A stretch of 14,583 nucleotides of DNA from Candidatus Hodarchaeaceae archaeon (GCA_030018135.1 JASEGJ010000025.1:1-14583), one strand, 5' to 3'; positions 418 to 14,545 are shown, counted from the first letter of the stretch. Program-made: numbers and translations. Notes: generated by a model from the sequence alone, not told the origin.

Positions 418-5433
<5,016 letters not shown>

Positions 5434-7288: not shown

Positions 7289-8239
7289 TTAGTCCCTGAT
7301 GCCCTGTTCGGTGATGACGAAAATGGACTCGCCCTCCGGCAAGTTAGGGCTGTCGACCACGCGCGCGATGCGCCTGCCCCCCTTGGACTTTCGCAGGTAG
7401 ACGCGCGTCGTAGCCGAGTGTCCGAGCACGTGTCCGCCGATCGGCCGCGTCGGATCACCGAAGAACAGGTCAGGTCTCGCCTGCACTTGGTTCGTCACAA
7501 ATACTGCGATGTCCTTCAGGTCAGCTATCCGGTGAAGGGTCAGCAGGTGCCTCGCGAGCTTCTGCTGTCTATCAGCCAAAGTTCCCCTCCCCACGAACTC
7601 GGCTCGGAAGTGGGAGGTCAGCGAATCGACCACAAGGAGCCGCACCCCCTCCTTCCCGATTATCTCCTCGGCCTTCTCCGCTATCAGCAGCTGTTGGTCT
7701 GTATTATACGACCTGGCGACCAAGATGTTCCGAAGCGCATCCGTCGGGTTGAGCCCAGCCCCGGCCGCCATATCCAGGATCCGCTCGGGCCTAAAGGTGT
7801 TCTCGGTGTCTATGAAGACCGCCTTGCCGCTCAGGCCCCCCTGCTCGGGCGGGAGCTGCACGTTCACGCAGAGCTGGTGGGCCAGCTGGCTCTTGCCCGA
7901 GCCGAACTCCCCGAAGACCTCGGTGATTGCCCTTGTCTCGATGCCCCCCCCGAGCAAATTATCGAGCTGCTTGCCGCCGGTGGTTATCCAGCCTATTGTC
8001 TTCCTGCGCTCCAAGACCTTATCTGCCGTTACGAAGGTTCCAATCTCCGCCGCCTTTTTCGCGGCTTCGATGATCTTCTTCGCCTGAGATTCCCCGATCT
8101 CGGCCGCCTCGCGGAGCTCAGCCACAGTCGCGACGGCAATCGACTCAACGGTGCCGTAACCGGCCTCGCGGAGCTTCTCGGCGGTTGCCTCACCGACCCC
8201 GGGCAGTCCCTCGATCGATATTCCCTTCCCCCCGGCCAA
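7289..8239 (-). CDS. radA: DNA repair and recombination protein RadA
   Basis: N-terminal HhH ([15 protein letters not shown]), Walker [20 protein letters not shown], Walker [29 protein letters not shown]. Start is TTG 8239 (GGAGG 7 nt upstream) or in-frame ATG 8257. Confidence 0.97.
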
Positions 8240-8267
8240 ACTTGCGCCTCCGTTCATTTTTCGATTT

Positions 8268-10331
8268 TCATGCTTTTATTCTTTCCAGTAGTTCGCGCGC
8301 TTCCTGTTTTGGATCTGACGGCTGCACATCATCAACCCTGAGCTCAAGTTGGCCGAAGTACTTATCGTACCTGGTGGTCCCGACGAGGATGATCTCCCGG
8401 CCGATCAAACTGAACCTATTGTAAAGCTCAATCAAGTCGGGAGTTTTTTTGAACTGCTCGAACAACTGCTGCGCGCTCATGTTCAGGAGCCTCTCCGCGG
8501 CCTTCCCGAAGAGCGCGGCGCGGATGTTGCCCGTACCGTCGTCCACCACGAAGCTCAGCACCGCGCGATGTTCCGGCGTCACGACCTTCCCGCACTCCTC
8601 GCACAACAAACTCGTATCCACGCTCCCGAGGCTTCGGCCGCACGAGGGGCAGACATCGAACAACGGACGCCTGTGAAATACTCGCACGATCGTGCCGCGC
8701 ACTTGGATGTGCATGCCCTCCTTTTGGAGCGAGCCGATGTCGACGCGCTCCGGCTTGGCAACGACCATCGCGAGCACATCAGCGGGGGGGAGCTCTTCGA
8801 CCACGGCCGGGTTGACCTCGAGACGACCCTGTTTGCCGAGGTGGATTTCAGTTTGCCCAAAGAGCCCGACCGTGCTATAACAATTGACGAGTTTTACGAC
8901 ATCGCCCGCTTTGATCCCCTCGACCTGCTCGGCATGCTCCTGCCACACCGATGCCCCAGCGGTGCCGGTCTCGTCCCCCACCACGAGGGTTGCGACCTTC
9001 CCCCTGCTTCCGTCGGCGCGCGTGAACTCCCGCGGCCCTGCCACCTCCACGACCCTGCCGACCACCTCGAGTGCGTCCATGCCGGGCTCGACCTCGCCTA
9101 CCGCTATTGGACTTGGTTCAAGCTCGCCGACCGTCATGCCGGCCGGGTTGATTTCGACCCGAGCGGCTCGGCCGATGTGGACCTCGGGCCTGCCAGCTAG
9201 GCCCGGGCGCGCGTAAGCGTTGCGCACGAGCACCACTTCACCCGGCGATAGCCTTTGTGCGAGCTCGACAGCGCCGTCCCAAAATGAGGCGCGGATGGTT
9301 CCGGTTTCGTCTGCCAAAATTGCGCTTGCTACCCGCCCCACCGTGCCGTCATCGCGCTTGAACTCCTGCGGTTGGAATTTGCGCCTCACCCTGCCGACGA
9401 AATCGAGCGTCTGCATATCCGCCTCGATCTCCTCAACCTTCAACAGCCGTTCCTTCAGTTCCGGGAGTTCCGCGACCTCCGCATCCGGCGGGTTGAGCAA
9501 TATGCGCCCTCGCCATCCGAGGTGGAGTTCGGGCTTCTCGCGCAACCCTGGCCGCACGTAAGCATTTTCCAGCTTTATCACGTCGCCGCGCCTGACGTTC
9601 CGCACGGACTCCGCCTTCTCGTCCCACAGCGAGGCGCGCACGCTACCGGTTGAATCCATCAGCATGAGTGACGCGACCCTTCCAGTCGAGCCGTCGGGGC
9701 GCTCGAACGTTCGGGGCTCGCTCACGGCGACGACTCGGCCGAGCACGTCGACATCCGCAAGATCCGGCCGAAGGTCCGCAATTTTGACCCTCGCCTCCTC
9801 CAGCGGTGGCAGGTCGGCCGCGCGGGGGTCGTCCGGGTTGAGGATCACCGAACTGCGCTGGCCGGCGTTGAGCTCGGGCTGCTGGTTGAGCCCTTGGCGC
9901 ACGTAGGCACCCTTGATCTGCACCGCAATCCCCTTTTGAATCTCGCCCATCTCGACGAGCGAAACCTTGTCGTCCCACAGCACGACTCGAACCTGCCCGG
10001 TTCGATCTTGGAGCAAAAGATTTGCCACGCGTCCCTGCGAGCCGTCCAAGCGCTGGAAGGCCCGCGGCTCGTAGACGCGGACGACGCGCCCGACGATGTC
10101 GACCCTCGACATCCCGGGGATCAAGTCCTCTATGCGCAGCTCCCTGACCTCCGGCTCCTTCCTCACCAGCTCGATGCCGAGCTCGCGCCCGACGATGATC
10201 GCGGCACCCTCGGTGGTAACGAAGCCGCTCAACTCCTCCTGCTTCTGCCGGATGCGAGCCATGAGTTCGTCGTGACTGATTCCCGTGCGCCCCAGTATCT
10301 CGCTGACCATCTGCTCAAAATTCATGCTCAT
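8268..10331 (-). CDS. rpa: Replication protein A, large multi-OB subunit: N-terminal helical domain, four tandem OB folds, C-terminal OB fold with Zn finger (~687 aa)
   Basis: Four repeats of GRV...F.R.DG..G.VA...L/V.D.TG......W, then CPSC...CEEC and [12 protein letters not shown] 10331 has GGAGG upstream; the ORF track starts at 10361. Directly upstream of radA. Confidence 0.92.
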
Positions 10332-10582
10332 GAGCAGCCTCCAAGGATGTTGCTGACTCATGCCTTAAAGAAGTTTGGGGGAGAGGTGGGTGAAAGTAAT
10401 GATGTCCATATTGGTTTATCCGACTATTTTCAAAAATTTGGCTGGCATAATAGTGTCGACCCTCCGTCGGATTTCTCCCATAGGAAATCTTTGTCCTCTT
10501 GATCAATTTTACTGCATTTGGGATGACCCTCGATACCTCTTGGCTGGGACCACCTTAGGGTTTACCATTTTCAGAAAGGCAT

Positions 10583-11368: not shown

Positions 11369-13279
11369 ATGCAATTCAAATACGGTGGCTACACAGGTCA
11401 GGTGCTTGAGGTCGATCTGAGCCGGGGAAAGGTCGTCGGTAACCCATTGGACCCTCTCCTAGCCAGGGAATACCTCGGCGGTGCTGGCTTCTGCTCCCGC
11501 GTCCTCTACGATGAAATTGGGCCGAAGACCAGACCGCTAGGTCCGGAAAACGTCTTAGTTATCGCCACCGGTCCGCTGACCGGAACGCTCTTTCCCCAAG
11601 CTTCGCGGCACGTGGTAGCGGCAAAATCGCCGCTCACGGGGATATGGGGCGAGGCTCATGCGGCGGGTCACTGGGGGGCGGAACTCAAGTTTGCTGGCTT
11701 CGATGCGATAATCGTCAGAGGTCGGTCGCCGAGACCGGTTTATCTTTGGATAGAGAATGGACAAGCCAAAATTAAGAACGCTCGACGGCTCTGGGGATGC
11801 GACGTTTACGAGACGGATGCGATGATCAAGGAGGAGTTCGGGGATGGGTCGATCAAGCTCCTCTACATAGGGCAGGCCGGGGAGAACCTCGTCAGGTTTG
11901 CTGCCGTCATGAACGACCTAGATCGAGCCGCTGCGCGGACGGGCATGGGCGCCGTGATGGGCTCGAAGCGCCTAAAGGCGGTCGCGGTTAGGGGCAGCCG
12001 GGACATCCCGATAGCGAAGCCTGAGAGCTACTTGAAGCTGATGGACGAGCTCCGCGAGAAGATGCTAGCCGACCCCTTCACGCAGGGGCGCGCGGACTAC
12101 GGCACGCCGAGCTTGGTGGAGCTCATGAATGAGATCGGGCGCCTGCCCACCCGCAACTTCCAGACGGGCGTCTTCGAGCACGCAGAGGCGATAGGCGGCA
12201 AAACAATAAGGAAGAGGTACTTGGTCAAGCCGAGGGCCGATTTCGCCTGCATTCAACGCTGCGGCCGTTACACCTGCGTGCCCGAAGGACCCTACGCCTA
12301 CATCGGCGGAAGCCCGGAATACGAGACGCTTTCTTGCGTGGGGTCGAAGTGCGGCATCGGCGATGTCGAGGCGATACTGTACGCGCACCACCTCTGCAAT
12401 CGATACGGCATGGACACCTGCAGCTTCGGGGGCACGCTTGCCTGGGCTATGGAGTGTTATGAAAAGGGGATAATCACAAAGGACGACACGGGCGGCCTCG
12501 ACCTCAGCTGGGGAAACCACGCATCGATGGTCGAACTCGTGCACATGGTCGCACGCCGGAAGGGCTTCGGCAATATTTTGGCCGAGGGCAGCTACCACGC
12601 GGCGAGGAAGGTAGGCCGTGGAGCTGAGGAGTACGTGATGTGCATCAAGAAGCAGGAGATAGCTGGGCAGGATGGCCGCGCTCAGAAATCAATGGGCCTC
12701 GGAAATGCTACCGCAGCGAGGGGCGCAGACCACCTCTACGCATTCCCGGTGCTCGATGAGGTAGGATTCGAGAAGGCGATACGCGAGCGCTTTGGGGCGA
12801 AGTACCTGCCGGAAATAGGTGAGAAGCTCAACCCCAAATACAAGGGATTGATGGTCAAGGAATGCGAGGATTTTGCGGTGGTGGTGGAGTCGGTCGGCGT
12901 TTGCAAGTACGGCACGATGATACCCCCCACCTTCTTCTATTCAGATATTCTGAGGGCGCTCAACGCGACGACGGGCATGAGGCTCACCGAACGAGAGCTG
13001 CGCAGAATAGGCGAGCGCATCGTTAACCTCAACCGAATGTTCAACGTCCGTGAAGGCATAGCACGAAGGGATGATACGCTGCCGGAGCGCCTGCTGAAGG
13101 AACCAGCCCCTGATGGCCCGCCCAAGGGACATGTGGTCGAGTTGGATCAGATGCTCGACGAATATTACAGGCTGCGCGGCTGGGACGTTAAAACGGGCCT
13201 CCCGACGCGCGGTAAACTTAGAGCACTCGGGCTTGAGTTCACTGTCAAGGACTTGCCTCGGCGCAAAGTCGCCCGATGA
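11369..13279 (+). CDS. aor: Tungsten-family aldehyde:ferredoxin oxidoreductase (AOR/WOR), 636 aa
   Basis: KSPLTG, LKFAGFDAIIVRG, GQAGENLVRFA, AARTGMGAVMGSKRLKA, PEYET, RGADH, DDTLPER and EYYRLRGWD. Substrate subfamily cannot be determined by eye. Confidence 0.95.
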   Translation: MQFKYGGYTGQVLEVDLSRGKVVGNPLDPLLAREYLGGAGFCSRVLYDEIGPKTRPLGPENVLVIATGPLTGTLFPQASRHVVAAKSPLTGIWGEAHAAGHWGAELKFAGFDAIIVRGRSPRPVYLWIENGQAKIKNARRLWGCDVYETDAMIKEEFGDGSIKLLYIGQAGENLVRFAAVMNDLDRAAARTGMGAVMGSKRLKAVAVRGSRDIPIAKPESYLKLMDELREKMLADPFTQGRADYGTPSLVELMNEIGRLPTRNFQTGVFEHAEAIGGKTIRKRYLVKPRADFACIQRCGRYTCVPEGPYAYIGGSPEYETLSCVGSKCGIGDVEAILYAHHLCNRYGMDTCSFGGTLAWAMECYEKGIITKDDTGGLDLSWGNHASMVELVHMVARRKGFGNILAEGSYHAARKVGRGAEEYVMCIKKQEIAGQDGRAQKSMGLGNATAARGADHLYAFPVLDEVGFEKAIRERFGAKYLPEIGEKLNPKYKGLMVKECEDFAVVVESVGVCKYGTMIPPTFFYSDILRALNATTGMRLTERELRRIGERIVNLNRMFNVREGIARRDDTLPERLLKEPAPDGPPKGHVVELDQMLDEYYRLRGWDVKTGLPTRGKLRALGLEFTVKDLPRRKVAR

Positions 13280-13340
13280 ATTAGCTGACGGGCTTTCCGG
13301 ATATTGCAATGCATTGAGATATTTTTCTGATTTTAGACAA

Positions 13341-13352
13341 ACTATATATAGT
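13341..13352 (+). promoter_or_regulatory. TATA box of the candidate ncRNA
   Basis: ACTATATATAGT preceded by GACAA. TATATATA (13343-13350) ends ~22 nt before the first stem base at 13373, which fits archaeal promoter spacing. Confidence 0.6.
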
Positions 13353-13372
13353 ATACATGTTAAACAATAACC

Positions 13373-13603
13373 GGCGGGGATGGAAGCCTACAGAGGCGGC
13401 CGAACCGGAGCCTACGGGCAACGGGGAGTCGTGAAAAAACCTAGGCGAAAAACTAGGGTTTGTCGCGGATAAACGCCTGGAAGCAGGGCGTGAGGTAGCG
13501 GCTGTGGGAAAAAGACCCCAACATGAAAAAGCGGCAGACGACGGAATTGGTCGAGACTCCGAAGTTTGCCGGGGGAGTAGTGGAAGGGTCGAAGTCCCCG
13601 CCA
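13373..13603 (+). ncRNA. Candidate ~230-nt structured non-coding RNA of unknown family
   Basis: Closing stem GGCGGGGAT (13373-13381)/GTCCCCGCC (13594-13602). Nested stems GGAGTC/GACTCC and GTTTGTCGC/GCGGCAGAC plus several hairpins. G-U pairs and A-rich loops work on the + strand. No credible ORF. Confidence 0.7.
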
Positions 13604-13604
13604 C

Positions 13605-13612
13605 TTTTTTTT
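13605..13612 (+). terminator. Oligo-T (T8) archaeal-type terminator
   Basis: TTTTTTTT 2 nt after the 3' strand of the closing stem. Confidence 0.6.
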
Positions 13613-13646
13613 AGATTATCAGAAAAGCTCAAGTAGCTTCTAAGTT

Positions 13647-14545
13647 TTGAGTAAACTTATGATCGCTACCAGCGCTGGTTCCGGCAGGTACGAGGATATC
13701 GTCACCGCCTTAGGCAGATTGAAGCGAAAGCCCAGCAAAAGGTTGTTGTTGAAACCGAATCTAGTCGGAGGCGGCCTGGCGGCGACGCATGTCGATGCGG
13801 TCAGGGCGGTGTTGGATAGCATGGATGTGGATCTCATAGCCGAGGGCAGCAGCGTCGACACGTTTGGGCTTTATTCCATGCTCGGTTACAGAAAGTTGGC
13901 GCAGGAATATGGTGTGGACCTCGTCGACATAAATCGGACGGACGAGTGGAGGGAGATAGAATTCACCGCCATCGACGCACGCAAGGTTAAAGTCAGGGTC
14001 TCAGAGTTCTCGCGAAAGTGGAATGTAATTTCCTTAGCGTTGCCCAAAACCCACGACCACGCCATCGTCACGCTGACGCTCAAAAATATGTTGGGATTCG
14101 TGCACCCCCAGGATCGCGGATTGGTCCACGGCTACGCTGCCACCTTCGGTAAGTTGATGAGGATAGCGCCGTTGAGGAAGGTTGCCGCACGCCTCTCGAG
14201 GTTTAGGTCGCTTAGGCGGTTATATTCCTCCACGGAGGTCGAGGAAAGGGCGTATTTACTCGGCGCCAGAGTTGTCCATAAAAACATCGTGGCACGCTCA
14301 AGTTCGCGATGCCGAAGCTCGGCATAATAGATGGCTTCGTGGGCATGCAGGGAGAGGGACCAATCGGCGGCGAACCTGTTGAGTGGAACATGGCGATAGC
14401 TGGCAACCCAATCGAGTGCGATGTGTTTTGCGCTCACAAGATGGGTTTTGATCCAACGGATGTCGGGTACCTACACTACCTTAGGGCGCCAGGGATAGAC
14501 GAGATAAAAGTTGTGGGTGACGAAATCCCGGTGCCGTTCAAATAA
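13647..14545 (+). pseudogene. DUF362-family protein split by a 1-nt deletion; pseudogene or sequencing error
   Basis: LLKPNLV, THVDAVRAV, IAEGS and PKTHDHAIVTLTLKNMLG in the first frame; IIDGFVGMQGEGP and D...A..MGFDP..VGYL in the second. Adding one base at 14295/14296 (GCA C-G CTC) gives ...KNIVAxLKFAMPKLGIIDG... and a 299-aa protein. Start is TTG 13647 or ATG 13659. Confidence 0.8.

What the first reader, a model, noticed from the sequence alone, without database searches (positions are those of the whole stretch)
13373..13612. Candidate novel ~230-nt multi-branched archaeal ncRNA with its own promoter and terminator
Seen: a GC-rich island in AT-rich flanks between a TATA box and T8. Nested long-range stems: 13373-13381/13594-13602, GGCC 13398-13401/GGTC 13587-13590, GGAGTC 13425-13430/GACTCC 13555-13560, and GTTTGTCGC 13458-13466/GCGGCAGAC 13531-13539. 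Hairpins: GCCT-acag-AGGC (13386-13397), CCTAG-gcgaaaaa-CTAGG (13440-13457), ACGCCTG-gaag-CAGGGCGT (13473-13491), TGTGGG/CCCAACA (13503-13523) and GAC/GTC (13540-13552). A C(UACG)G hairpin (13410-13419) is mutually exclusive with GGCAA 13417-13421/TTGCC 13566-13570, hinting at a switch. G-U pairs and GAAAAA linkers indicate selection on + strand RNA. It lacks RNase P, SRP and tRNA signatures. Inference: either a stand-alone structured RNA or a leader/attenuator for the DUF362 gene starting 35 nt after the T tract; the tungstoenzyme and Fe-S neighbours suggest a cofactor or metal ligand.
Basis: partly seen in the sequence, partly recalled or inferred. Interest (0 to 1): 0.85.

Follow-up and report, generated by a model that had tools for sequence, protein, structure and literature searches.

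The report
New structured RNA family in Hadarchaeota
The flagged stretch is a real, separately transcribed gene for a roughly 230-base folded RNA that belongs to no described RNA family, occurs only in the archaeal phylum Hadarchaeota, usually in two to four diverged copies per small genome, and has no known function.

Summary
Window 13373-13602 (+) is a genuine structured non-coding RNA gene. It folds far better than shuffles (z -4.9). It matches none of 4227 Rfam families. It is not RNase P or SRP RNA, which lie elsewhere in the same genome. Homologues occur in 51 of 66 genomes of the phylum and in at least 75 metagenome matches. Two independent sequence patterns scanned over 185,579 species found confirmed members only in records titled Hadarchaeota or loosely labelled archaea. 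On 63 distinct copies, 97.5% of cells pair and 43 of 59 pairs show compensatory changes. G-U outnumbers A-C 294 to 35, so the + strand is the RNA. Each copy has a conserved archaeal promoter and a T-run. Most downstream genes are convergent, so it acts in trans, not as a leader of the DUF362 gene. There are long (about 230 nt) and short (about 190-214 nt) subfamilies that share a core but differ in one apical module. Function is unknown; my best guess is a protein-bound scaffold RNA.

The parts
13335..13350 (+). Archaeal promoter: purine-rich BRE-like stretch (13335-13342) and TATA box TATATATA (13343-13350), centred about 26 nt upstream of the first G of the RNA
   Evidence: Read directly. 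In 70 aligned upstreams of homologues, A reaches 75-84% at -38..-34. A T/A-rich TATA (TTAAATA / TTTATAG) lies at -30..-23. Position -1 is C or T in 99% and +1 is G in 98%.
13373..13602 (+). The RNA itself (230 nt from the first to the last base of closing stem P1); the transcript probably continues through A13603-C13604 into the T-run
   Evidence: CM R1 match 1-230 of 230, 240.7 bits. Fold z -4.91. 97.5% of cells paired and 43 of 59 pairs compensatory across 63 copies. GU/UG 294 versus AC/CA 35.
13373..13381 (+). P1 5' strand; pairs with 13594-13602 (9 bp closing stem)
   Evidence: Compensatory GC to AU or CG changes occur at three P1 pairs, and helix 1 is 100% paired.
13387..13508 (+). Domain I. 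P2 (13387-13393/13502-13508) and P2b (13399-13401/13494-13496) enclose a four-way junction with three hairpins. PA is 13405-13424 (GA/AA internal loop, UACG loop). PB is 13429-13468 (A-rich internal loop, GCGAAAAA loop). PC is 13473-13491.
   Evidence: Helices 2-6 are 97-100% paired, each with 3 to 8 pairs changed on both sides.
13514..13590 (+). Domain II: P3 (13514-13518/13586-13590), P4 (13522-13524/13580-13582), P5 (13532-13538/13565-13571) and P6 (13542-13545/13558-13561)
   Evidence: Helices 7-10 are 88-100% paired, each with 3 to 7 pairs changed on both sides.
13525..13531 (+). 5' side (GAAAAAG) of the conserved P4/P5 internal loop. It lies opposite GAGUA 13575-13579. Together they resemble a loop-E / sarcin-ricin (AGUA/GAA) module.
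   Evidence: Invariant A154-A157 and A204, U206, A207 in 63 copies; also kept in the short subfamily. The motif name is recalled from memory and was not tested.
13544..13556 (+). Apical loop of domain II (GAAUUGGUCGAGA here; family consensus GAAGUGGUCGAGA). It is almost invariant in all long copies and is replaced by unrelated short hairpins in the short subfamily.
   Evidence: UGGUCGA is invariant and the flanking A, A, G and G nearly invariant in 63 copies. The loop is absent from the short variants.
13605..13612 (+). Oligo-T (T8) terminator directly after P1
   Evidence: At least 4 consecutive T within a few bases of the 3' end in 88 of 100 distinct copies, and at least 5 T in 64 of 100.

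Best explanation
Window 13373-13602 (+) is one gene of a previously undescribed family of stand-alone, highly structured ncRNAs restricted to the archaeal phylum Hadarchaeota.

Shown:
- Each copy has a promoter-like BRE/TATA element upstream, with the first G of GGCGGGG the likely start, and a T-run immediately after the closing stem where archaeal termination is expected.
- The RNA folds into a 9-bp closing stem that encloses two domains. Domain I is a four-way-junction domain. Domain II is an extended stem with a conserved loop-E-like internal loop. Invariant purine-rich linkers join them.
- Most genomes of the main family carry 2-6 CM matches (typically 2-4 full-length, diverged copies) at different loci.
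- These copies fall into a long subfamily (about 230 nt, with an almost invariant apical loop GAAGUGGUCGAGA) and a short subfamily (about 190-214 nt, with a different apex) that share the same core.

Inferred mechanism. The RNA acts in trans as a stable RNA, most likely as the scaffold of a ribonucleoprotein. The shared core binds a common partner, either a protein or a small ligand. The apex of domain II is an exchangeable specificity module. The 3' U-tail next to P1 would suit an Sm-like protein.

My odds:
- real conserved structured RNA gene: 0.97
- new family: 0.9
- trans-acting rather than cis-regulatory: 0.75
- RNP scaffold with a modular apex: about 0.35

The molecular function is not known.
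For: - Structure: z -4.91. RNAalifold on 40 copies gives 62 pairs, 45 of them with compensatory changes.
- Covariation on 63 distinct copies: 97.5% of cells paired against 84.6% shuffled; 43 of 59 pairs with double changes; covariation score 0.465 against at most 0.087 for structures slid by 1-3 columns; 0 of 500 shuffles reach any measure; all 10 helices have at least 3 covarying pairs.
- Strand: GU/UG 294 versus AC/CA 35.
- Not a known RNA: 0 Rfam matches at gathering score in the window and only two chance-level matches at E<=10. RNase P RNA (204.5 bits) and SRP RNA (147.4 bits) lie on other contigs of the same genome. ARAGORN finds nothing.
- Distribution: blastn finds it in 31 of 41 relatives and the CM in 51 of 66 genomes of the phylum. 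The own genome has 3 copies.
- First pattern scan, 65 stretches: 61 titled Hades-/Hadarchae- or 'Hodarchaeaceae', 2 loosely labelled archaea confirmed by nhmmer, and 2 bacterial stretches not confirmed.
- Second pattern scan: 37 of 37 stretches from such archaea.
- 0 matches in viral contigs. 75 CM matches in the 80 metagenome loci returned. No CM match at E<=1 in 30 PolB loci titled as other phyla.
- Independent gene: conserved promoter, T-run, convergent downstream genes in 41 of 69 and 14 of 22 copies, and a conserved TATA-like element for PolB between the RNA and PolB.
- Modularity: long and short subfamilies share the core but differ in the domain II apex, and they split deeply in the tree.
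Against: - No expression data: no RNA run was listed, so transcription, the ends and abundance are inferred from promoter and terminator conservation only.
- No partner protein was identified. The neighbours are unrelated housekeeping or metabolic genes: PolB, a Drg-like GTPase, a geranylgeranyl-reductase-like enzyme, AOR, glutamine synthetase, GDH, MoeA, CDF and Hyp proteins.
- Four fairly complete genomes (90-95% complete; 9, 20, 10 and 150 contigs) have no copy at CM E<=1. In two of them the Drg-GGR spacer simply lacks the RNA. So it is not a universally essential housekeeping RNA.
- In the two families where the CM finds one copy per genome, the RNA always sits 21-33 nt upstream of PolB with its T-run in TATA position. 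This leaves room for an ancestral cis link to PolB.
- The RNP and modular-apex reading is inference from conservation patterns only.
Confidence: 0.6

Rival explanations
1. It is a cis-acting leader, either a riboswitch or an attenuator, that controls the gene downstream on the same strand. Here that gene is DUF362; ancestrally it is DNA polymerase B. Control would work by modulating termination at the T-run.
For: Same-strand genes follow at short distance in 28 of 69 long-set copies, 20 of them PolB. Families f2 and f5, where the CM finds one copy per genome, always show RNA - T-run - 21-33 nt - PolB start. The invariant junction purines and the size resemble large riboswitch aptamers.
Against: The next gene is convergent in 41 of 69 and 14 of 22 copies. 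The Drg-GGR locus copies and the tandem short-plus-long pairs have no same-strand target. A conserved AACTTTTAT TATA-like element for PolB lies between the T-run and the ATG in family f1, and in f2 and f5 the T-run plus ATA/ATT itself reads as a TATA box about 25-30 nt before the start. DUF362 is downstream only in this window; in L090 it is upstream of the RNA. No alternative pairing covaries.
Confidence: 0.1
2. It is a trans-acting sensor or sequestering RNA for a metal cofactor (tungsten or molybdenum pterin, or a metal ion), as the first reader suggested from the neighbouring genes.
For: AOR genes lie within 1.5 kb of 13 of 100 distinct copies, in both subfamilies and in several arrangements. 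MoeA is divergent from three short copies, and a CDF transporter and hydrogenase Ni-maturation genes adjoin others.
Against: The genome has 9 AOR paralogues in 1.1 Mb. The adjacencies are inherited by synteny and reduce to roughly two independent arrangements, so the enrichment is marginal. The most frequent neighbours (PolB, Drg, GGR) have no link to cofactors. The Moco RNA motif and all other Rfam riboswitches give no match.
Confidence: 0.08
3. It is a self-contained functional RNA without an obligate protein. Either it is a ribozyme, or it is an 'ornate' RNA that self-assembles into oligomers like GOLLD, ROOL or OLE.
For: 52 invariant positions lie mostly in junctions and loops. A palindromic UCGA sits in the invariant apical loop and again in the conserved GGUCGAA segment, which could support kissing contacts. 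The size and multi-domain fold are typical of such RNAs. Oligomeric ornate RNAs are reported in preprint 10.1101/2024.12.08.627333; I saw only its listing and abstract.
Against: No covarying long-range or loop-loop pair was found beyond the helices in the mutual-information scan. The short subfamily lacks the apical loop. There is no biochemical evidence.
Confidence: 0.12
4. It is a divergent member of a known class: RNase P, SRP, tRNA-like or tmRNA-like, H/ACA guide, group I intron, or a guide RNA of a mobile or defence system.
For: The 5' GGCGGGG / 3' CCCCGCC-A ends and the GGGUCGAAGUCCC segment look superficially like a tRNA acceptor stem and T arm.
Against: There are no Rfam matches even at E<=10. 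RNase P and SRP RNAs are found elsewhere, and ARAGORN finds nothing. P1 covaries over its whole length and GGGUC covaries with GACCC 70 nt upstream, which excludes a T arm. No RT, TnpB/IscB, Cas or recombinase gene is among the annotated neighbours. There are 0 hits in viral contigs. Synteny with housekeeping genes is stable.
Confidence: 0.03

Closest known systems
Orphan large structured bacterial ncRNAs (raiA motif RNA, OLE, ROOL, GOLLD)
   Same: All are stand-alone genes with their own promoter and terminator. They have 200 nt or more, multi-domain folds with heavy covariation and invariant junction nucleotides, a lineage-restricted distribution and unknown biochemical function. The properties of those families are recalled; for GOLLD, ROOL and OLE I saw only listings and abstracts.
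   Different: There is no sequence or CM similarity. This RNA is archaeal and confined to one phylum. It occurs as 2-4 diverged paralogues per genome in two length classes. No conserved protein-gene neighbour is seen, unlike OLE with its oap genes (recalled).
Archaeal RNase P RNA and SRP RNA (RF00373, RF01857)
   Same: They are stable archaeal RNAs of 200-320 nt, G+C-rich, with a closing helix and multi-helix junctions, and they are transcribed from strong TATA promoters.
   Different: Both are present as separate genes in the same genome. The candidate does not match either model. It is multi-copy and is missing from some fairly complete genomes.
Large riboswitch aptamers (cobalamin, lysine, Moco RNA motif)
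   Same: Similar size. P1 closes a multi-way junction, with invariant purines in the junctions and a loop-E-like module (as in the lysine riboswitch; recalled). There are several copies per genome.
   Different: There is no CM match. Most copies are not in a 5' UTR. A T-run follows P1 directly, with no expression platform. No alternative pairing covaries.
High-GC ncRNAs of AT-rich hyperthermophiles (HgcC/E/F/G; multi-hairpin H/ACA guide RNAs)
   Same: They are archaeal, G+C-rich, stand-alone genes; some reach about 200 nt (recalled).
   Different: There is no Rfam match. The architecture is long-range closing stems around junctions, not serial hairpin-ACA units. The host genome is not AT-rich (55.5% GC).

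Membership tests
Archaeal RNase P RNA (RF00373) | Match to the family covariance model above its gathering score; normally a single gene per genome | tested here: not met
   No match in the window at gathering score or at E<=10. The genome's own RNase P RNA is at C41:16740-17026, 204.5 bits.
Archaeal SRP RNA (RF01857) | Match to the family covariance model | tested here: not met
   No match in the window. The SRP RNA is at C7:1427-1734, 147.4 bits.
tRNA-like / tmRNA-like RNA | Acceptor stem plus a T arm with a 7-nt T loop, detectable by ARAGORN | tested here: not met
   ARAGORN finds 0 genes in the window. The would-be T-arm segment GGGUC pairs with GACCC 13514-13518, with compensatory changes (AU 41, GC 12, GU 10; CG 42, UA 13, UG 8). 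The 3' CCCC run is used in P1.
Riboswitch / cis-regulatory leader | Location in the 5' UTR of a same-strand gene in most representatives | tested here: not met
   The downstream gene is convergent in 41 of 69 and 14 of 22 copies. A conserved TATA-like element lies between the RNA and PolB.
Riboswitch / cis-regulatory leader | Mutually exclusive alternative pairings (expression platform) | tested here: not met
The T-run abuts P1 directly.
Riboswitch / cis-regulatory leader | Specific binding of a small ligand | not testable with these tools
   This needs in-line probing, ITC or SHAPE with candidate ligands.
Moco RNA motif (RF01055) and other Rfam riboswitches | Match to a family covariance model | tested here: not met
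   The cmscan against all 4227 families gave only two chance matches at E<=10, v-snoRNA-1 and SOX2OT_exon3. The accession RF01055 is recalled.
Group I intron (Rfam Intron_gpI) | CM match and insertion inside a host gene (rRNA, tRNA or protein-coding) | tested here: not met
   There is no match. The element is intergenic, with its own promoter and terminator.
Guide RNAs of mobile or defence systems (omega RNA/HEARO, retron msr, bridge RNA, tracrRNA) | Conserved adjacency to the effector gene (TnpB/IscB, RT, recombinase, Cas) | tested here: not met
   Pfam annotation of the recurrent neighbour clusters shows none of these. 0 hits in viral contigs. Only the recurrent neighbours were annotated, not every flanking ORF.
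Archaeal H/ACA guide RNA (multi-hairpin) | Serial hairpins, each with a pseudouridylation pocket, a K-turn or K-loop and a 3' ANA box | tested here: not met
   The consensus has 9-bp and 7-bp long-range closing helices around junctions, not serial independent hairpins. There is no Rfam H/ACA match. K-turns were sought by eye only.

The most novel reading that the evidence does not exclude
The family is the RNA subunit of an undescribed archaeal ribonucleoprotein or ribozyme. A fixed catalytic or ligand-binding core comprises P1-P2, the four-way junction and a loop-E-like module. Paralogue-specific apical modules act as adaptors for different targets. That would make it a phylum-specific RNA machine on the scale of RNase P or SRP, and one that was lost together with its partner in some lineages.
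Probability: 0.15. Interest if true: 0.9.

Novelty: categorically new. Interest (0 to 1): 0.72.

Why it matters
Few large structured RNAs are known in archaea beyond the universal ones (rRNA, tRNA, RNase P, SRP) and the guide RNAs. This is a roughly 230-nt two-domain RNA supported by 43 covarying base pairs. A streamlined 1.1-Mb genome spends several strong-promoter genes on it. It is confined to an uncultured subsurface and hot-spring phylum.

It is a clean, testable candidate for a new RNA function: an RNP, a ribozyme or a sensor. The alignment and covariance model made here would let it be annotated in all Hadarchaeota genomes and metagenomes. The clear presence/absence pattern (51 of 66 genomes) makes a search for a co-distributed protein partner directly feasible.

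Tried and rejected
- RNA-seq evidence: the look-up of sequencing runs listed no RNA holder for 13300-13700. This says nothing about expression.
- Literature: five full-text searches and a term search inside preprint 10.64898/2026.10.21.760802 (passages only; 'Hadarchae' and 'Hadesarchae' occur 0 times) found no description of this RNA. One search was poorly designed: 12,491 papers held 2 of 6 terms, and none of the 15 listed held 'Hadarchae'. Supplementary files were not consulted.
- tRNA-like T-arm idea: rejected from covariation.
- Tertiary or pseudoknot pairs: the mutual-information scan with APC gave no convincing extra Watson-Crick pair. Column 57/99 may extend PB by one pair.
- Target search for the invariant apical loop: 132 or more wobble-tolerant complements in the own genome, so it was uninformative.
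- 'c7', a 775-aa ORF without a family that seemed to replace PolB in one family, appears to be the antisense ORF over PolB: tblastn labels those loci as PolB downstream, the Atlas recognition score is low, and Pfam and NCBIfam find nothing.
- AOR/MoeA adjacency as a functional clue: kept only as a weak lead.
Those changes coincide with changes in the true partners. From reading the alignment, it also fails in short copies such as GGCU with GAUC. An alternative pairing is therefore not strictly excluded.
- Phylogenetic profiling for a partner protein was not feasible, because only the own genome can be laid in the script box.

Full report
**Observation**

The stretch 13373-13602 on the + strand folds to -102.9 kcal/mol. 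Two hundred dinucleotide-preserving shuffles average -80.4 +/- 4.6, giving z -4.91, and none of the 200 folds as well. The reverse complement is clearly weaker, at z -2.96. TATATATA (13343-13350) lies about 26 nt upstream of the first G, and T8 (13605-13612) follows the closing stem. The window has no tRNA or tmRNA and no Rfam match at gathering thresholds. A permissive scan of 13250-13700 at E<=10 gave only two chance-level matches: v-snoRNA-1 at 17.7 bits against a threshold of 75, and SOX2OT_exon3 at 7 bits. The 'GC-rich island' is only local. The RNA is 51-58% GC in 80-nt windows, like the neighbouring coding sequence (56-60%) and the genome (55.5%). It is flanked by two short spacers of 31-39% GC.

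**It is neither RNase P nor SRP RNA**

The window is a whole 14.6-kb contig (C17) of a 1.1-Mb assembly that is 93% complete. That assembly holds a canonical archaeal RNase P RNA (C41:16740-17026, 204.5 bits) and an SRP RNA (C7:1427-1734, 147.4 bits) on other contigs.

**Homologues and structure**

blastn with 13360-13620 found full-length matches of 69-85% identity in 31 of 41 related genomes, often two per genome. RNAalifold on an alignment of 40 copies (A1) gave 62 pairs, 45 of them with compensatory double changes.

I then collected 63 distinct full-length copies, trimmed from P1 to P1 (A2), and counted the consensus structure on them:

| Measure | Observed | Control |
|---|---|---|
| Cells forming a standard pair | 97.5% | 84.6% after shuffling |
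| Pairs with changes on both sides | 43 of 59 | — |
| Covariation score | 0.465 | at most 0.087 for structures slid by 1-3 columns |
| Shuffles reaching any measure | 0 of 500 | — |

All ten helices have at least three covarying pairs. G-U/U-G cells outnumber A-C/C-A cells 294 to 35, so the + strand is the functional RNA.

**Anatomy in window coordinates**

- P1: 13373-13381/13594-13602.
- Domain I:
  - P2 13387-13393/13502-13508 and P2b 13399-13401/13494-13496 enclose a four-way junction.
  - Hairpin PA is 13405-13424, with a GA/AA internal loop and a UACG loop.
  - Hairpin PB is 13429-13468, with A-rich internal loops and a GCGAAAAA loop.
  - Hairpin PC is 13473-13491.
- An invariant AAAAAG linker.
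- Domain II: P3 13514-13518/13586-13590, P4 13522-13524/13580-13582, P5 13532-13538/13565-13571 and P6 13542-13545/13558-13561.

P4 and P5 are separated by a conserved internal loop, GAAAA opposite GAGUA. It resembles a loop-E / sarcin-ricin module; that name is recalled, not tested. P6 is capped by an almost invariant loop, GAAGUGGUCGAGA (GAAUUGGUCGAGA in this copy). Fifty-two positions are invariant in the 63 copies.

Four of the eleven agree with this structure: P1, the PB apical hairpin, PC and the UACG hairpin. The other seven, counted together, pair in 68.5% of cells, and 215 of 500 shuffles do as well. Their covariation score is 0.150 against a shuffled mean of 0.147.

TTGCC 13566-13570 pairs with GGCAG 13533-13537, not with GGCAA 13417-13421, so the suggested switch has no support. 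The GGCC/GGUC helix is compatible in 93.7% of long-copy cells but shows only one doubly changed pair. From reading the alignment printed, it also fails in short-subfamily members.

**Distribution**

- A covariance model (R1) finds three copies in the own genome: this one, C18:12071-12301 (239.6 bits), and a shorter 214-nt variant at C40:7690-7903 (134.1 bits).
- Across the phylum as held (66 species genomes), 51 have a match. Counts exclude the own genome:

| Family | Genomes with a match | CM matches per positive genome |
|---|---|---|
| f1 | 39 of 45 | mostly 2-6 (a few have 1) |
| f2 | 6 of 6 | 1 |
| f5 | 3 of 3 | 1 |
| f3 | 1 of 1 | 1 |
| f4 | 1 of 9 | 1 |
| f6 | 0 of 1 | — |

  All.
- A conserved-hairpin pattern scanned over one genome for each of 185,579 species gave 65 stretches. 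Sixty-one carry Hades-/Hadarchae- titles, counting two titled 'Hodarchaeaceae'. Two are loosely labelled archaea that nhmmer confirms. Two are bacterial, and nhmmer does not confirm them.
- A second pattern from a different part of the molecule gave 37 stretches, all from such archaea.
- Viral contigs gave 0.
- Metagenome contigs gave at least 120 stretches. In the 80 loci returned, the CM found 75 matches.
- The oldest locus appears to lie upstream of PolB, so I fetched 79 PolB loci and searched them with the CM. It matches upstream of PolB in 22 of the 49 loci with Hadarchaeota-type or unspecific titles. It matches in none of the 30 loci titled as other phyla or left unspecific (Hydrothermarchaeota, Altiarchaeota, Micrarchaeota and others). 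Twenty of those 30 hold the full 1.5 kb upstream.

**Gene organisation**

Seventy aligned upstream regions show an A-rich BRE-like block at -38..-34 and a TATA box (TTAAATA / TTTATAG) at -30..-23. Position -1 is a pyrimidine and +1 is G in 98%. Many copies at different loci also carry a further motif, ATATCTCCA, at about -54..-46. A run of at least four T lies at the 3' end of 88 of 100 distinct copies.

The next gene downstream is convergent in 41 of 69 long-set copies and 14 of 22 short-set copies.

Two loci dominate:

- Locus 'a': RNA followed by DNA polymerase B on the same strand. This includes all copies from families f2 and f5. In f1, AOR often lies upstream, as in this window.
- Locus 'b': RNA between a divergent Drg-like GTPase gene and a convergent geranylgeranyl-reductase-like gene.

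In f1 a conserved AACTTTTAT TATA-like element for PolB lies between the T-run and the ATG. In f2 and f5 the T-run plus ATA/ATT sits where PolB's TATA box should be.

The DUF362 gene follows the RNA only in this window; in L090 it precedes the RNA. The RNA is therefore an independent gene, not a DUF362 leader.

**Subfamilies**

A tree of 100 distinct copies splits deeply into two groups.

- Long copies are 220-231 nt and occupy loci 'a' and 'b'.
- Short copies are 188-213 nt.

Short copies keep P1, P2, the junction hairpins, the linkers, P3, P4 and the GAAAA/GAGUA loop. They replace the apical part of domain II with unrelated short hairpins. Some short copies sit about 80 nt upstream of a long copy in tandem at locus 'b', and an aligned promoter-like region precedes both members of such a pair. 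Other short copies lie near genes for glutamine synthetase, glutamate dehydrogenase, MoeA, a CDF transporter or AOR.

**Dispensability**

Four fairly complete genomes (90-95% complete; 9, 20, 10 and 150 contigs) have no match at E<=1, and a fifth (91%) has only a 13-bit chance-level match. Two of the four belong to a genus in which another species has two copies. In those two, the Drg-GGR spacer is simply short and lacks the RNA. When the RNA is absent, all paralogues are absent. That pattern is what one expects if a shared partner or pathway was lost.

**Interpretation**

Shown: this is a conserved, strand-specific, elaborately folded RNA gene family that matches no described family and is confined to Hadarchaeota.

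Inferred: it acts in trans. My preferred mechanism, at about 0.35, is a ribonucleoprotein scaffold. Its invariant core would bind a common partner, and the domain II apex would be a paralogue-specific module.

Rivals:

- a protein-free ribozyme or self-assembling RNA (0.12)
- an ancestral cis link to PolB (0.10)
- a cofactor or metal sensor (0.08). The AOR and MoeA adjacencies are suggestive, but this genome has 9 AOR genes.
- a divergent known class (0.03)

**Limits**

No RNA-seq holder was listed, so there are no expression data. Full-text searches found no description of this RNA. Subscription journals and supplementary files were not covered.

Noticed in passing
window 418-5433 (+): A 1671-aa CDC48/VCP-type AAA ATPase. 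It gives two matched stretches each to the intein-splicing and LAGLIDADG homing-endonuclease Pfam families, which suggests one or two inteins.
   Followed up: no
window 13647-14327 (+) and 14309-14545 (+): The DUF362 gene downstream of the RNA is split. The N-terminal part of the domain (profile positions 2-146) is in one ORF and the C-terminal part (157-199) is in an overlapping ORF in another frame. This could be a frameshift, a sequencing error or a pseudogene near the contig end.
   Followed up: no
own genome G000, contigs C1, C17, C19, C33, C42, C45: There are nine aldehyde:ferredoxin oxidoreductase (AOR) paralogues of 41-49% identity in a 1.1-Mb genome, three of them on contig C42 within 16 kb.
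   Followed up: partly
L019, L080, L072, L026, L048: the 21-33 nt between the RNA and PolB: In families f2 and f5 the RNA's terminator T-run, extended by ATA/ATT/ATG, lies about 25-30 nt upstream of the PolB start codon. It probably doubles as PolB's TATA box, so one element would be shared by two genes.
   Followed up: partly
about -54 to -46 upstream of many RNA copies, e.g. L036, L007, L019, L052: A motif ATATCTCCA (or AATATCCCA) recurs about 20 nt upstream of the TATA box in copies at different loci and from different paralogues. It may be an upstream promoter element or a regulator site that travelled with the gene during duplication. The three copies in the own genome lack a clear version.
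   Followed up: partly
L037 3386-3588 and 3069-3299 (-); likewise L098, L107, L056, L044: A tandem pair of a short variant (about 203 nt) and a long copy (about 231 nt), some 86 nt apart in L037. An aligned promoter-like region precedes both members. The pair lies in the Drg-GGR locus of one genus.
   Followed up: partly
L282 1288-1445 and L312 1252-1457: Two unusual copies lie directly upstream of PolB: a 158-nt version (76 bits) and a divergent copy of about 206 nt (44 bits). They may be decaying or further-diverged members.
   Followed up: no
L065 and L074 (record titles): Two records titled 'Candidatus Hodarchaeaceae archaeon', an Asgard family in the NCBI taxonomy, carry typical full-scoring copies of this RNA. 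The label is probably a mix-up with Hadarchaeaceae.
   Followed up: no
L045 2854-5178, L081 and L025: ORF cluster 'c7': A 775-aa ORF with no family, running antisense across the PolB gene in G+C-rich relatives. It is an ORF-calling artefact that briefly looked like a conserved neighbour.
   Followed up: yes
window 13281-13604 (-): A 107-aa ORF lies on the opposite strand across the whole RNA gene. Given the base-pair covariation and the G-U asymmetry that favours the + strand, it is almost certainly spurious.
   Followed up: partly
window 7289-8257 (-), 8268-10361 (-): RadA and a multi-OB-fold RPA gene lie a few kb upstream of the RNA, and PolB follows the RNA in relatives. Locus 'a' thus sits among replication and repair genes. 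I did not examine whether this reflects closeness to a replication origin.
   Followed up: no
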